NCBI GenBank assembly: GCA_047601445.1
Contig: JASGJH010000001.1
Location: 4,704,001-4,768,000 of the forward strand
Source of the DNA: Myxococcales bacterium
GTDB taxonomy: Bacteria; Myxococcota_A; Polyangia; Polyangiales; DASUME01
Length of the DNA: 64,000 nucleotides
Reading direction: 5' to 3'
Position 1 is the stretch's first letter, and every line of letters begins with the position of its first letter. This document shows, piece after piece, positions 21,201-27,200 of this stretch. Made by a program: the position numbers.

Positions 21201-24200
21201 TTTCGTGCCGCCGGGAAGCCGCCTCGAAATTGGCCTGGCATGTCTCGAACTGCAGGTCGGAAGCGAGCGCTCGAGCTTGCCACCGTTGCCATCGTTCGTG
21301 CGCCTGCCTCGCAAGTCGCCCGTTCCGCGTGGTCCCAAGTCGGGCATCATGCTTCAACCGCGAGAGGCCAAGACCGTGCCGGAACTTCCAGCCCAGTCCG
21401 AGCCGCTGATCACCCCGCCGCCCGCGGCCGTCATCAACACGCCGCTCCCTGCGGCCAAGTCCGAGTCGAGGCCGACCCTGCTGCCGAGGCAAGCGCAGGC
21501 GTTGGCGCGCGCTGACCTGATGCTGCGCAGCGGCGGAGCCCTCAGCAAGGTCGGCGACGCGAACTCCAAGCTGGAAGCGGGACCCAGCGCAGGCTCCGGC
21601 CGACCGCGGCGAAACGTGGTGGAGATGTCGAAGGACACCATGGAAGCGAAGCGCCCGCCCGAAGCCTGGGTGCAATCCATCGTGCCCAACCAGCGCCGCA
21701 ACAAGCGAACCTCGCGCAAGCTCAAGGCTTACGCGCTCGGGGGCTTCGTGCTCGCCGCGCTGTATGCGGCCTGGGTGGTGCTGCTCGACAAGGTCTGAAG
21801 CTCGGGACTAACGAGTGGCGCGCATCACACCGCGCTCGGCAAAGCTGATTCCCGCGAGCACGTCGGACAGCTGCTCGAAGACCGCCTTCTGAGCGGCCGC
21901 ACCGGCGGCCAGCGGATTGAGCACGCACACGTCGACGCCTTGCTCGGCGTAAGCACGGATGCGCGCGCGTACGTGGGCCTCGTCGCCCGCAATCCCGATG
22001 GCATCGCACAGCCGCGGCGTCATGGCCTTGGCCACGCCGGCGCGGTCACCCTTCGAAAAGGCCTCCTTCACGGCCAGGGCCTCCTGCTCCATGCCTATCC
22101 ACTGGAAGAAACGGTTGTAGCCACCTACCGCCACGTAGGGCCCGAATGCCATGCGCACTACCTCGCGTCCGTGATCGATGGAAGGCAGCACGCTGACGTG
22201 GAGACGCGCTACCACTTCGAGACTGGCCGGGTCGCGCCCCGCCTCTTCGGCGCCACGCCGCACCTCGCCCAGCACCTGCTTGAGCGCGCTCTCGGGCACC
22301 ATGTTGAGCACCACGCCGTCGGCCAGCGCGCCAGCCAGGCGCAACATCTGCGGGTTGAGGGCGCCCACGAAGAGCGGCACCTCCACCTTCGACGGCAAGC
22401 GGAAGTTCTTCATGCTCAGAGTCTCGCCCGCGACCTGCACCTTCTCGCCTGCAAAGGCCTTGCGCAGCGCGCCCAGTGCCTCACGCATACGCGGGATGGG
22501 CTTGTCGTAGGGCTGCCCCGCCCAATCGCGCACGATGTTCTCGGAGGAGATGCCGAGGCCCAAGCTAAAGCGCCCCCCGGTGAGCTCGCTCAAGGTGTAG
22601 GAGCCGAGCGCGTGGATCATCACGGAGCGCGTCGCGAGCGGCAGCACGCCCATGCCGATGCGCACGCCGGGCGCCGCCTGACTGAGCGCCCCCGCGAGGG
22701 CGTAGCACTCGGCCGCGTTGACCTCGGCCAGCCAGAGTTCGTCATACCCCTTCGCGCACATCTCTTTGGCCAGGGCGACCGCGTGCTGGGCGACCGGAGG
22801 CTGGCTGGGAACCATGGGAACGGTGAGTCCGAGACGCGGGCGAAGGGCGGTCATGCAGGGCTCTCTACCACAGCCCAGGCGTGGCTCCTATGGGCTGGAG
22901 AGCTCTCCTCGCCGGGCGCGGATTGCCGGGACCCGCGGGGCCGCACTATAGAGCGGGACCCATGACCTTGCCCTTCACCGTGCGGGCCCTCGATGTCCAC
23001 TCGCGCGCGCGCCGCGGCACGCTGATCACCGCCCACGGCGCGGTGGAGACGCCCGCTTTCATGGCCGTGGGTACACGCGCCACCGTGACCGGATTGACGC
23101 CGGATGATCTGCGCGCAGTGGGCGCGCAGGTGGTGCTGGGCAACACCTATCACTTGATGCTGCGCCCGGGTCCCGAGCTGTTTCGACGGGTCGGCGGCAT
23201 CCACGCGTACATGAAGTGGTCCGGCCCCGTGCTCACCGATTCGGGCGGCTACCAGATCTTCTCGCTCTCGGAGGACCGCACCATCAACGAGAAGGGTGCG
23301 CGCTTCAAGAGCTACGTCGATCAACGCTTCTATCTGCTCTCGCCCGAACGCTCCATCGAGATGCAGACGGCCATCGGCTCCGACATCATGATGGTGCTCG
23401 ACGAGTGCGTGGATTCGAACTCCGACGAGGCCCGCACGCGCGCCGCCATGGAGCGCACCCATCGTTGGGCCCTGCGCAGCTTGGCCGCGCGCACGAACCC
23501 GGCGCAGGCCCTGTTCGCCATCGTGCAGGGCGGTGTCGTGGCGTCGCTGCGCAAGGAGTCGGCGGACTTCCTGACCCAGCATCCATTCGACGGCTTCGCC
23601 ATCGGTGGACTCGCCGTGGGCGACACGCGCGCGCAGCGCGAGGAGATGACCCACTTCTCGGCGCAACTCTTGCCCGCCGAGCGTCCACGCTACCTGATGG
23701 GCGTGGGCACGCCGCCCGATTTGCTGCACGCAATTTTGGCCGGTGTGGACATGTTCGACTGCGTCCTGCCCACCCACCTCGGCTGGCAAGGCACCGGCTT
23801 CACCTCCACGGGGCGCGTACGCATCACGCGGGCTGCCAATGCCGATGCCGACGTGCCGCTCGACGCCGCCTGCAACTGCAGCACGTGCCGCACCTTCAGC
23901 CGCTCCTATTTGCACCATCTCTTCAAGTGCAGCGAGCCACTCGGACCGCGCCTCCTGTCGATCCACAACCTGCACCACTATCACAGCCTGATGGCCGAGG
24001 CGCGTGCCGCCATCGAAGCGGGCGTCTACGCGAGCTTCGCCAGGCAAAAGCTCGACGCCATCGATCGCCACGAGCACAGTGACAAGCGGCTCGGCGCCGC
24101 CTTAGCTGCAGTCGGCTCTCCAGTCGACGCGGTGTAACGTGAGCACTTCCCGCGAGTGTGAGGTCGTGATCACGCGCAGTGGCGCACATGCGATGCTGGA

Positions 24201-27200
24201 TCACGCTTCCGGCGAGGTCATGCACCCGGTGGTGGGTCCCCTGGTAGAGGCCGAGCAACTCTACCTGCAACCGAGCCGCCTGCGCGAACGCTTGAGCACG
24301 TCGAGCAGCGACCCGCTCGTGCTGTTCGACGTGGGCCTCGGCGCAGGCTCCAACGCGGCCCTCGCGTTTCGCACCTCCGAGGCCTTGCGCGGCCTGCGCC
24401 GTCCACTGACCATCGTGAGCTTCGAGACCTCCCTCGCAGCCTTCGCGCTGGCCGCGACCTCCGAACACCGCGCCGCGTTCGGCCTCGACGACGACGTACT
24501 GCCCGCGGCGCGCGCGCTGCTCGAGCGGGGCGAACACCGCACACCCCACACGCACTGGCGGTTGGTGCGGGGCGACGTACTCGAGACCATCCGCGCGGAA
24601 CCGGCCCAAGCTGCCGATGTGGTGTTCTGGGATCCCTTCTCGCCGCGCGCCAATCCCGCGCTCTGGACCGCGGCAGCCTTCGAAGCGCTCCACCGCGCCT
24701 GTCGCCCCGGCGTCAGCGTCCACACCTACAGCACCGCGACCGCCGTGCGCAGCGCGCTCCTGTTGGCGGGCTTCGCCGTGGGCCAAGGACCGAGCACTGG
24801 CGAAAAGGCGCAGACCACCCTGGCGGCTCTGGACGCGCGAGATCTCGCGCAACCGCTCGACCTACGTTGGCTCACCCGGCTGACGCGCTCGTCGGCGCCC
24901 TTCCCTAGTGACGCTCCGCCAGACGCCATGCAGCGCGTGCACGCGCTGGCCCAGTTCAGTCCCGCGGACGCGCGAACCAGCCCTTGATCACATCGAGCAC
25001 GGTCTCGTGCTTCCAGTCCTTGAACTCGCCCGCGTCGAAGAACGTGCCCTGACACACCGGACAGGTCTCGAGGTGAATGTGGGACTGCTTGCTGTCCACG
25101 ATACGCACCATCGGTGTGGTGTCACGCGGGCAGCGAATGCGATCGTGGGTGTTGTGCTTCTGGCCCTCTTCGACGGTACCGATATCGATGGCCTCGGAGC
25201 CCGGCATCGCCTTCAACTTGTCGGCCTTGCGCGCGTCGAAGAACAACCCATGACACGAGGTGCAGCGCTCGACTTCAACCTTCTCGAAAACGACCGACTC
25301 CATGGCGGCACTGCACTTGGGGCAAATCATGGGACTCCTTGCTCGAGAAGCAGAGCACACCGGAAAGCCCCCGCGCCAGTCGATTCGCTGGCCCGCCACC
25401 CAGAGCGCCCGTGAGAATCACTCGCTGCGCTGCTTTTGCGGCCGATAGGGGTACACCCAGCTCAAGAACGGGTTCACCGTGCGCGTTTGGACCCACACCT
25501 TGCCCTGCCCCGAGAAGCGCACCACCAACCCTTCGCCGCCGAAGAAGAACGACTTCGCGCGCCCGCCCAGACCGAGGCCCGGCAAGACGCTCACGTCGTA
25601 TCGCAAGGTATCCTCGAACGCGACCACGTAGCCCGTGTCCACCAGCATGTCCGTGGTGACATCGAGCTCCAGTACAGCTCCGTAGGCATTGAAGAACACG
25701 TCGCCCTCGCCGCTCGCTTGCAACAGGACGAGCCCTTGCCCCGAGAAGAAGCCGCGCGCGCCTGCCCACTTGGCCGTCACGTTCACACCTTCGCCGTTCG
25801 CGAGATAGCCGCCGCGCTGCACCATCAAACGCCCGCCGCGCAGGCGGTAGTGCACGATGTCGCCGGCGGGGCCGGGCGCCAAACAGAGCTCGCCCGCTTG
25901 CTGCGCGGTGTAGGTGTTCACGATCATGCTCTCGCCGGCGAACATGCGACCCATGCTGCCGAGCACGCCACCCTTGAGCCCCGCCTTCAGCTGGATGCCG
26001 GGATCCATGCTGGCCATGGCCGAGGGTTCGCTGAACAGCTTTTGTCCACTCGCGAGGCGCACGCGCAGCATGGCGAAGTCGGGGCGCTCGAGGATGTCGA
26101 AGTCGAACGAAGGAGTGGTCACCGGGCGTCCTCTCTCAGCGTGGGTAGAGCATGGGTCCGAGCAGCTTGCCGAAGCTCGGAGGGTTGTGGCTCTGGCAGT
26201 AGAGCTTGCCGGTGCCACGGAAGTGACACACGAGTCCTTCGCCGCTCAGGTAGCTCTGCATCCAGCTGTCACCGAGCTTGCCGACCTCGAAGTTCAGGGT
26301 GTCCTCGAAGGCCACGATGTGTCCGGAGTCGACCACGTAGGTGCCGTCGATGGGTACCTCGTAGATGGCGCCGAAGCTGTTGAGGAACACGTCGCCCACG
26401 CCGCTGCACTTGACCCAAAACACGCTCTCGCCGGAGAACAGCGCCTTGCCGAGGCCCTGGAAGCTGCCGTCGATGTCCACGCCAGGGCCCGAGGCGAGCC
26501 AGCTCGACCCCTGCACGATCAAGGAGCCACCCGTGAGCCGATGGTGGACCACGTCTCCGCACAGGCCCGGCCCCAGGATGAGCTCCTGTCCCGCGGCGCC
26601 GGCGGTGAAGTGATTCAAGAAGAAGTTCTCGCCGGCCACCATGCGCTTGACCCCGGCCCAGAAGCCGCCGCCGCCTTTGCGACTCGCGCTGGTTTGCACC
26701 GTAAAGCCGCTGGTCATGGCGATCATCGCGCCAACCTCGCAGACCACGGTCTCGCCGCGCTGCATGGTGAGCTTCACGACGGACGCCGATGGACGCGCCA
26801 GAATTTCTGCCTGCACGTGAGACTCCTCAGAGGTGACTGTTGACCCAGCTCGCCAGGCCCTGAAGGGACCGACTCTGCATGTAGATGCGGCCTTGCCCGC
26901 GGATGCGCATCACGAGGCCCTCGCCGCTAAAAAAGCTGGAAAACAGGCCACCCGCCATCCCCAAGCGAAGCTCCAAAGTGGGCTCGTAAGCCACCAGATG
27001 CCCGCTGTCGACCACGTACTCGCCCTGCACGTCCTTCTCCACGATGCCACCGTAGGCACCGAACCAGACCCGGCCGTGGCCGCTCACCTTGAGCCGAAAC
27101 AAGCCCTCGCGCGCGATCAGGCTACGCAGGCCGGCGTAACCCAGCCCGAATTCGACGCTGGGGTCACAGGCCAGGAACGCGCCTGGCTGCAGGTAGAGCG

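What a model noticed while it worked through the whole genome (the two positions that open the first line are those of the whole stretch)
22962..24987. Second TGT paired with an MnmD-type methyltransferase in a genome without MnmEG
Besides queA-tgt, the genome has a second tRNA-guanine transglycosylase followed by a stand-alone MnmD (MnmC2)-like methyltransferase; in many relatives the two are one protein. As this genome cannot make MnmD's usual substrate (no MnmEG), the pair probably makes a different modification, for example an N-methylated preQ1 base.
Evidence so far: All 120 listed longer homologs of the methyltransferase are TGT+Methyltransf_30 fusions. TGT2 keeps the catalytic and preQ1-pocket motifs (TDSGG 118, GGLAVG 107 of 120) but the RSGRNG/RNGRNG tRNA-contact stretch is xxAWQG. 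Pair adjacent in 2 of 4 genus loci with TGT2. MnmEG absent.
(Added by a program. Inside this text positions count along the whole contig: contig position 4,704,001 is position 1 of the stretch shown here. "Call 12" and the like, gene names such as g00115 and contig names such as C1 are that model's own, and its searches are not shown. The text may have been shortened before it was handed on; [...] marks where a part breaks off. The agent that wrote the report below was given it as the finding of a first reader that could run no searches.)

Follow-up and report, generated by a model that had tools for sequence, protein, structure and literature searches.

The report
Second tRNA transglycosylase with partner methyltransferase
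This bacterium carries a second, altered copy of the enzyme that swaps a modified base into tRNA, paired with a methyl-adding enzyme whose usual substrate it seems unable to make, so the pair probably makes an undescribed tRNA modification; nobody has tested this.

Summary
Confirmed. Two intact genes 1 nt apart encode a second TGT (TGT2) and the genome's only MnmC2-family methyltransferase (MT). The genome also has queA-tgt, queG and a preQ1 transporter, but no MnmE, MnmG, Elp3, QueC or QueF was found. MT-linked TGTs from about eight phyla are fused or adjacent to MT. The 102 placed in a tree form one clade. They keep the catalytic, preQ1-pocket and zinc residues but not the Arg286/Arg289 pair (0 of 143, against 35 of 35 canonical); the core myxobacterial clade also loses Lys52, which contacts U35. 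Carriers nearly always keep a second, ordinary TGT. In this MnmG-less genus TGT2 and MT occur together or not at all (4 and 5 of 9). Best reading (0.5): TGT2 inserts preQ1 at a tRNA wobble G and MT N-methylates it. A non-GUN target is the bold case (0.27). Against: outside core Myxococcota most carriers have MnmG and often no other MnmC2, and two Steroidobacteraceae kept MT after losing TGT2. The fusion is listed in print without a function, and this scan noted it before on other DNA (Verrucomicrobia). No activity was measured.

The parts
22962..24137 (+). TGT2: paralogous tRNA-guanine transglycosylase, 391 aa, 50% identical to the genome's queA-linked TGT
   Evidence: model pLDDT 90, TM-score 0.91 and rmsd 1.4 A to Z. 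mobilis TGT 1Q2R
23088..23090 (+). Thr43 in place of Z. mobilis Lys52 (E. coli K39), a residue that contacts uracil 35
   Evidence: alignment; role from 10.1101/2020.09.01.277731, passage
23238..23240 (+). Asp93 = catalytic Asp102, in TDSGG
   Evidence: 143 of 143 MT-linked TGTs
23604..23624 (+). GGLAVGD preQ1-pocket strand: Val219 = Val233; Asp221 replaces Glu235. With Cys149 (= Cys158) it gives a bacterial preQ1-type pocket
   Evidence: pocket determinants from PMC3660597, passages
23757..23759 (+). Asp266 = nucleophile Asp280
   Evidence: 143 of 143
23775..23792 (+). HLGWQG replacing R(S/N)(G/A)RNG: Arg286 becomes His, Arg289 Trp, Asn290 Gln
   Evidence: contact of these arginines with U35 is recalled (Xie et al. 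2003) and comes from no call
23829..23831 (+). Arg290 (E. coli N288 position), a basic residue gained by the family (R 137, K 5 of 143)
24139..24987 (+). MT: MnmC2/MnmD-family (PF05430) SAM-dependent amine N-methyltransferase, 282 aa; nearest solved sequence Aquifex MnmC2 3VYW
24334..24354 (+). Motif I GLGAGSN (SAM binding)
   Evidence: motif from PMC3527978, passages
24631..24645 (+). Motif IV DPFSP; Asp165 = catalytic Asp193 (Aquifex) / Asp178 (E. coli)
   Evidence: D165 in 88 of 88
24727..24729 (+). Tyr197, equivalent of E. coli Phe210 / Aquifex Tyr225, proposed to stack the substrate base
   Evidence: 87 of 88

Best explanation
A two-enzyme tRNA wobble-base pathway running beside queuosine. 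Step 1 (inferred): preQ1 enters through the QPTR transporter here; carriers with QueF can make it. Step 2 (inferred from intact residues): TGT2 excises a G34 and inserts preQ1 by ordinary TGT chemistry, on a tRNA set chosen by a remodelled position-35 site, either non-GUN tRNAs or a subset of GUN tRNAs. Step 3 (inferred by chemical analogy): MT uses SAM to N-methylate the primary aminomethyl arm of preQ1-34, as MnmC2 methylates the aminomethyl arm of nm5U34, giving 7-(methylaminomethyl)-7-deazaguanosine as an end product instead of queuosine. In carriers that have MnmEG the same MT probably still methylates nm5U as well. Shown here: genes, residues, clade, co-occurrence and missing pathways. 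Not shown: any activity, substrate or product.
For: Linkage: of 69 loci 37 adjacent and 18 fused; of 79 loci 38 and 24 (12 repeat earlier loci); of 68 loci 5 and 44; no other neighbour is conserved across genera. Co-occurrence: both genes in 4 and neither in 5 of 9 genus genomes, with MnmG in 0 of 9; in a 220-genome sample the same 2 genomes carry close MT and the TGT2 motif, while 27 other top TGT hits keep RxxR (30 of 41 hits read). Not the housekeeping TGT: 50 of 50 and 42 of 43 carriers have at least two TGT matches; 34 second copies fetched were RxxR-type, plus one more by alignment, 29 of them beside queA. One TGT2 clade, 102 rows, support 100. Catalytic and pocket residues kept in 141-143 of 143; both arginines kept in 0 of 143 against 35 of 35. 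MT has intact catalytic motifs although MnmG was not found in 37 of 50 carriers, and MnmE, MnmG and Elp3 were not found here. The same base exists in phage DNA as mdPreQ1 (10.1101/2023.04.13.536721, passages).
Against: No biochemical data. Outside core Myxococcota 42 of 49 genomes have MnmG; 57 of 67 genomes tested have a single PF05430 match and MnmM was found in 1 of 54, so the fused MT is often the only candidate nm5U methylase. Steroidobacter flavus and Peristeroidobacter soli kept the MT domain (85% identical to a fused one, dN/dS about 0.1) with one TGT and MnmG. A sister group of stand-alone MTs in Verrucomicrobiota and Bdellovibrionota shares most conserved residues and mostly has no TGT2; the TGT-linked MTs are not a supported clade (0.17). 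Lys52 is kept as K or R in 57 of 143 TGT2s. The U35 role of Arg286/Arg289 is recalled, not verified. M. jannaschii has a PF05430 gene without MnmG (control lists), so absence of MnmEG does not strictly exclude aminomethyl-U. One genome has a second TGT2 copy with no MT in the 4.8 kb fetched (L107). Most carriers are incomplete MAGs and are related to each other, so counts are not independent.
Confidence: 0.5

Rival explanations
1. MT is an ordinary MnmC2 (nm5U34 to mnm5U34) and TGT2 is a specialised or back-up queuosine-pathway TGT. They are linked only because both act at position 34; in MnmEG-less carriers nm5U would come from an unknown route.
For: MnmG in 42 of 49 non-core genomes; single PF05430 match in 57 of 67; MnmM in 1 of 54; MT kept after TGT2 loss in two Steroidobacteraceae; MnmC2 motifs intact; MnmA present here; archaeal PF05430 without MnmG (controls).
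Against: MnmG not found in 37 of 50 carriers, 10 of 10 Anaeromyxobacter-labelled genomes and 9 of 9 genus genomes; no Elp3 here; MT absent from exactly the genus genomes that lack TGT2; 6 fusion carriers have a further PF05430 gene and several more hold a solo MT plus a fusion-length TGT frame; a back-up TGT should keep RxxR.
Confidence: 0.2
2. Same product, reverse order: MT methylates free preQ1 base and TGT2 inserts the methylated base, with Glu235-to-Asp and the residue after Cys158 adapting the pocket.
For: E219 (Zm Glu235) is D in 86 of 101 mainly myxobacterial TGT2s and T146 is V/L/I rather than P; TGT accepts substituted preQ1 (PMC9561289, abstract start; PMC13416341, passage).
Against: Glu235 is kept in 42 of 42 TGT2s outside that clade; MT keeps conserved basic residues R204, K223, R247, R250; the characterised MnmC2 acts on tRNA.
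Confidence: 0.1
3. The pair modifies a nucleic acid other than tRNA position 34 (another tRNA position, another structured RNA, or DNA as DpdA/DpdM do).
For: The anticodon-contact stretch is remodelled; the distribution is patchy (4 of 9 in the genus, 2 of 220 in the phylum sample); E. coli TGT can act on DNA hairpins (PMC10103133, abstract start); mdPreQ1 is a DNA base in phages.
Against: TGT2 is 45-50% identical to ordinary TGTs with the same fold; it keeps Asp267 (142 of 143; U33 role recalled) and basic residues at E. coli 285 and 320, which bind the tRNA stem; no defence-type conserved neighbours; none of 29 viral TGT loci has an MT beside it; GC and GC3 match the other TGT gene.
Confidence: 0.1
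4. TGT2 binds tRNA but does not exchange bases; it is a docking or partner subunit (for MT, or in a heterodimer with TGT1, like eukaryotic QTRT2).
For: Lys52Met lowers turnover more than tenfold in Z. mobilis TGT and TGT2 has Thr there; the dimer residues Tyr330, His333 and Glu339 are kept.
Against: Both catalytic aspartates and the whole base pocket are nearly invariant across 143 sequences, which a non-catalytic subunit would not need; TGT2 scores as high as TGT1 against TIGR00430 (441 and 447 bits).
Confidence: 0.07

Closest known systems
TGT/MnmC2 fusions listed in bioRxiv 10.1101/2023.12.21.572861 (passages; its supplement S3 was not seen)
   Same: Same two domains (PF01702 + MnmC2/COG4121).
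   Different: Mentioned in one sentence, among genomes chosen for having MnmA, MnmG and MnmE, with no function given in the passages seen. Here the pair is split into two genes in a genome without MnmEG, and the TGT is shown to be a separate paralogue clade beside an ordinary TGT.
Bacterial tRNA-guanine(34) transglycosylase (Z. mobilis and E. coli TGT; TIGR00430)
   Same: Fold (TM 0.91), catalytic Asp102/Asp280, guanine pocket, Cys158/Val233 preQ1 pocket, zinc site, dimer aromatic residues.
   Different: Arg286 and Arg289 lost, Lys52 to Thr and Glu235 to Asp in the core clade; partnered with a methyltransferase rather than QueA; second copy in the genome.
Aquifex aeolicus stand-alone MnmC2 / DUF752 (PDB 3VYW; PMC3527978)
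   Same: Best PDB sequence match (E 1e-15); motif I GxGxGxN, DxF catalytic motif, substrate-stacking Tyr; methylates an aminomethyl arm on base 34.
   Different: Below the NF033855 cut-off; no MnmEG here to make nm5U; linked to a TGT.
Phage DpdA2 + DpdM, making mdPreQ1 in DNA (10.1101/2023.04.13.536721)
   Same: Same proposed two steps (insert preQ1, N-methylate it) and the same base.
   Different: DNA, not tRNA; DpdM is a cysteine-rich DUF3109 protein, whereas MT is a PF05430 Rossmann-fold enzyme; TGT2 is a close tRNA-type TGT.

Membership tests
Bacterial tRNA G34 transglycosylase (Tgt) | Score above the TIGR00430 cut-off; TGT fold with zinc site | tested here: met
   441 against 306.75 bits; TM 0.91 to 1Q2R; Cys/Cys/Cys/His invariant
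Bacterial tRNA G34 transglycosylase (Tgt) | Catalytic Asp102 and Asp280; guanine pocket Asp156, Gln203, Gly230 | tested here: met
Bacterial tRNA G34 transglycosylase (Tgt) | preQ1-type pocket Cys158/Val233 | tested here: met
   C 141 and V 143 of 143; criterion from PMC3660597
Bacterial tRNA G34 transglycosylase (Tgt) | Lys52 contact to U35 | tested here: not met
   Thr43 here; T 83, R 38, K 19, A 3 of 143 against K 34 of 35; role
Bacterial tRNA G34 transglycosylase (Tgt) | Arg286-x-x-Arg289 motif (U35/backbone contact recalled, from no call) | tested here: not met
   both arginines in 0 of 143 against 35 of 35; RxxR in 27 of 27 further canonical TGTs
Bacterial tRNA G34 transglycosylase (Tgt) | Inserts preQ1 at G34 of U33-G34-U35 tRNAs | not testable with these tools
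   needs an enzyme assay
Queuine-inserting (eukaryote-type) TGT | Val233Gly and Cys158Val pocket | tested here: not met
   V219 and C149 kept
Archaeal TgtA (G15) | TIGR00432 cut-off | tested here: not met
   113 against 350 bits
MnmC2/MnmD | PF05430 domain, motif I GxGxGxN, DxF catalytic motif, substrate Tyr/Phe | tested here: met
MnmC2/MnmD | NF033855 equivalog cut-off | tested here: not met
   90.6 against 136 bits
MnmC2/MnmD | MnmEG in the genome to supply nm5U34 | tested here: not met
   Elp3 not found either
MnmC2/MnmD | Methylates nm5(s2)U34 | not testable with these tools
   needs an enzyme assay
DpdA/DpdM DNA modification system | DUF3109-type DpdM and dpd or que cluster around the transglycosylase | tested here: not met
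   MT is PF05430 only; no conserved neighbours

The most novel reading that the evidence does not exclude
TGT2 is the first position-34 transglycosylase that does not read U33-G34-U35. It places preQ1 in G34 tRNAs outside the Asp/Asn/His/Tyr set, and MT caps it as N-methyl-preQ1, a guanine counterpart of mnm5U not reported in RNA in the papers I could search. Bacteria from about eight phyla would then run a second 7-deazaguanine wobble pathway beside queuosine, hidden under the annotation 'Tgt'.
Probability: 0.27. Interest if true: 0.87.

Novelty: new variant of a known kind. Interest (0 to 1): 0.66.

Why it matters
The position-34 TGTs described in the papers I read all act on the four GUN tRNAs, and N-methyl-preQ1 turned up only as a phage DNA base. 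A conserved second TGT with a remodelled anticodon-contact stretch and a dedicated amine methyltransferase predicts a new natural tRNA nucleoside and possibly a wider reach of 7-deazaguanine decoding. It is directly testable: cultured carriers without MnmG exist (Anaeromyxobacter oryzae, A. soli, A. terrae), the predicted product is preQ1 nucleoside plus 14 Da, and the enzymes are two small soluble proteins. It also corrects annotation, since these proteins pass the Tgt equivalog cut-off, and a TGT with new loop specificity would be useful for RNA labelling.

Tried and rejected
Complex prediction of TGT2 with MT gave no answer; not used either way. No RNA holder was listed for the locus. Rfam gave no match in the window or at the queA-tgt and transporter loci. 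No terminator and one chance-level promoter match on the other strand. A second QueA-like gene (C1:3445168-3446154, below QueA cut-offs, behind an SDR) does not track TGT2: found in 2 of 3 non-carriers and 0 of 2 carriers tested. QueF does not track the pair: over cut-off in 26 of 50 carriers. Pseudogene or artefact: rejected by intact frames and dN/dS. The GIDA hit as MnmG: rejected, it is TrmFO. TGT2 inserting a uracil derivative: rejected because the guanine-reading pocket is unchanged. Viral origin: 29 viral TGT loci, none with MT. A printed statement of the Arg286/Arg289-U35 contacts was not found (searches; look-ups); three papers asked for were not held, among them the 2024 review of 7-deazaguanine derivatives, which might discuss these paralogues. 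Rows dropped: TGT hits covering under about 300 residues or with internal stops were left out of alignments; 12 duplicate loci were left out of the tree; L114 was misgrouped and corrected; the MT tree used 122 of 184 sequences; the genome panels used 50 of 69 and chosen subsets of later loci.

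
Full report
What is there. 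The window holds two same-strand genes one base apart: TGT2 (22962-24137, 391 aa) and MT (24139-24987, 282 aa). TGT2 passes the Tgt equivalog cut-off (441 against 307 bits). MT is PF05430 and resembles MnmC2 but falls below that family's cut-off (90.6 against 136); its best solved relative is Aquifex MnmC2, 3VYW. An F420-type LLM oxidoreductase lies divergently upstream and a zinc-ribbon gene convergently downstream; neither is conserved beside the pair elsewhere. The nearest homologues are labelled Myxococcales or Polyangiaceae (94% and 85% identity), so the host is probably a myxobacterium (inference).

The genome. It is one 9.5-Mb contig, 98.7% complete. It has two TGTs; the other sits behind queA, is 50% identical and reads PTRNGRNG. 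QueG, a QPTR-family precursor transporter and MnmA are present. QueC and QueF were not found, so queuosine here depends on salvaged preQ1 (inference). MnmE is not found above cut-off, the GIDA-family gene is TrmFO, E. coli MnmG and MnmC1 give no tblastn hit, and Elp3 and MnmM were not found. MT is the only PF05430 gene. Both genes are under purifying selection (dN/dS 0.05 and 0.31 against L130).

The family. All 120 listed longer homologues of MT (of 286 found) are TGT fusions. Three genome scans gave 69, 79 and 68 loci. TGT lay directly upstream or fused in 55, 62 and 49 of them (12 loci of the second set repeat the first). Record labels cover Myxococcota, Verrucomicrobiota, Steroidobacteraceae, Binatia, Bdellovibrionota, Eisenbacteria, Thermoanaerobaculia and one Planctomycetota. 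Where a myxobacterial MT locus showed no TGT, one was usually elsewhere: G048-G050 carry an LLAWQG-type TGT2 away from MT, and 16 of 16 further genomes (14 labelled Myxococcota, 2 'Proteobacteria') have a TGT at least 54% identical to TGT2, though I did not read their motifs. A tree of the first two sets puts 102 TGT2 rows in one clade (support 100) apart from the queA-linked copies and E. coli; the 42 rows from the third scan were aligned but not placed in a tree. Carriers keep a second TGT: 50 of 50 and 42 of 43 have at least two matches (the second count includes unpublished G311). Of the second copies fetched, 34 were RxxR-type by pattern and one more by alignment, 29 next to queA.

What changed in TGT2. 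In Z. mobilis numbering, Asp102, Asp280 and Val233 are kept in 143 of 143 aligned TGT2s, Asp156 and Asp267 in 142, and Cys158 in 141. Cys158 and Val233 define the bacterial preQ1 pocket (PMC3660597, passages). The model has pLDDT 90 and matches the RNA-bound Z. mobilis structure with TM 0.91. In contrast Arg286 survives in 3 and Arg289 in 6 of 143, never together, against 35 of 35 for each in the canonical copies. Asn290 becomes Gln (125) or Arg (17), and a new Arg or Lys appears at E. coli position 288 in 142. Lys52, which contacts uracil 35 and whose mutation cuts turnover more than tenfold (10.1101/2020.09.01.277731, passage), is Thr in 83, mostly the core myxobacterial clade, and stays Lys or Arg in 57. 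That Arg286 and Arg289 read U35, and Asp267 reads U33, I recall from the 2003 RNA-complex structure; four searches and six look-ups did not give it in print. Basic residues at E. coli positions 285 and 320, needed for tRNA-stem binding (PMC13416341, section 7), are largely kept. The pattern is an intact base-exchange pocket with a rebuilt neighbouring site, which suggests a different or narrower RNA target (inference).

What MT keeps. Motif I (GLGAGSN), the DxF motif with Asp165 (88 of 88), Tyr197 (87 of 88) and basic residues R204, R247 and R250 are conserved. In MnmC2 these bind SAM, activate the amine and stack the base, and the pocket takes an aminomethyl arm on base 34 (PMC3527978 and PMC3648344, passages). 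PreQ1 at position 34 carries a chemically similar primary aminomethyl arm (established chemistry), and its N-methyl form exists in phage DNA, made by the unrelated DpdM (10.1101/2023.04.13.536721, passages).

Tests of the link. Among 9 other genus genomes (72-99% complete), 4 have both genes and 5 have neither; three pairs are adjacent and G278 has them on separate contigs. None of the 9 has MnmG. In a sample of 220 phylum genomes at least 90% complete, close MT homologues occur in G172 and G197 only, and these are the only TGT2-motif hits among the 30 best of 41. MnmG was found in 13 of 50 carriers of the first panel; seven of these (six Nannocystis and G044) match only the first 393-471 of 616 model positions. 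It was not found in 10 of 10 Anaeromyxobacter-labelled genomes, and MnmE was below cut-off in the three tested, including complete A. oryzae. So in much of the core clade MT is conserved without the known route to its textbook substrate, and it is lost where TGT2 is lost.

Results against. Outside the core clade MnmG is present in 42 of 49 genomes. The fused MT is usually the only PF05430 gene (57 of 67 have one match, 9 have more, 1 none) and MnmM was found in 1 of 54. Steroidobacter flavus and Peristeroidobacter soli have lost the TGT domain but keep MT intact (85% identity, dN/dS about 0.1) alongside MnmG and a single TGT. Stand-alone sister MTs in Verrucomicrobiota and Bdellovibrionota mostly lack TGT2 and share most conserved residues, and the TGT-linked MTs are not a supported clade. 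The simplest reconciliation is that MT keeps the ancestral nm5U activity where MnmEG exists and has a second, TGT2-dependent substrate (inference). Six fusion carriers have an extra PF05430 gene, which fits a separate job for the fused one. An unknown route to aminomethyl-U cannot be excluded: M. jannaschii rings for PF05430 but not MnmG in the control lists. MAG incompleteness and kinship weaken all counts.

Prior art. A 2026 compendium of bacterial RNA modifications shows no such base or paralogue in the passages found (PMC13602947). Searches for the combination gave nothing further. Two earlier notes of this scan found the fusion on other DNA and called it catalogued but untested; one pointed me to Verrucomicrobia, where I confirmed the fusions and found the same loss of Arg286 (0 of 42 aligned from that scan). 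Those notes are leads, not support.

Verdict. The pair is a real, widespread, uncharacterised module: it works like TGT plus an amine N-methyltransferase, but TGT2 fails the anticodon-contact features of Tgt and MT fails the MnmC2 cut-off and substrate supply. I put 0.5 on N-methyl-preQ1 made on tRNA, 0.1 on the same base made in reverse order, 0.2 on ordinary functions, 0.1 on another nucleic acid and 0.07 on a non-catalytic TGT2. A target outside the GUN tRNAs has about 0.27. New variant of a known kind; interest 0.66.

Noticed in passing
G000:C1:3225557-3225641 (-), outside the window: ARAGORN finds tRNA-Leu(AAG) and no tRNA-Leu(GAG). An A34 tRNA other than Arg(ACG) is uncommon in bacteria (own knowledge).
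   Followed up: no
G000:C1:3240535-3240609 and 5488435-5488510: Two different, credible tRNA-His(GTG) genes with the same anticodon loop.
   Followed up: no
L313:3648-4730 (-) = G000:C1 about 3445150-3446230: A second QueA-like gene (29% to E. coli QueA, below cut-offs) behind an SDR oxidoreductase; it does not co-occur with TGT2 in the 5 genus genomes tested.
   Followed up: yes
window 25418-27480 (-): Three tandem AIM24/TIGR00266-family genes, followed by a zinc-ribbon gene (24956-25399, -) that overlaps the end of MT.
   Followed up: no
window 21808-22854 (-): LLM-class F420-dependent oxidoreductase (TIGR03841 above cut-off), divergent from TGT2 across 107 bp; not conserved beside TGT2 elsewhere.
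   Followed up: partly
window about 28850-29400: Low-complexity tandem-repeat stretch that translates as MADGRW/MPDAGCR-like and ATASDT-like repeats in different frames, upstream of the ORF at 27885-29171.
   Followed up: no
window 14676-17792 (+): A 1038-aa ORF with CxxCH motifs and a lipoprotein-like cysteine-rich start; not annotated here.
   Followed up: no
G007, G011, G013, G017, G020, G027 (Nannocystis), G044, G296, G325, G326: MnmG matches stop at or before model position 475 of 616 in long open frames, and N. punicea MnmE matches only positions 2-295 of 446: possibly a divergent MnmEG.
   Followed up: no
L220 and L221, about 2950-3825: Steroidobacter flavus and Peristeroidobacter soli keep only the linker and MT part of the fusion, with different upstream DNA.
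   Followed up: yes
G025 (L053, L107), G028 (L057, L126), G036 (L066, L070): Three genomes hold two TGT2 copies; in G028 and G040 queF lies 7 and 19 kb upstream of the fusion on the same contig.
   Followed up: partly
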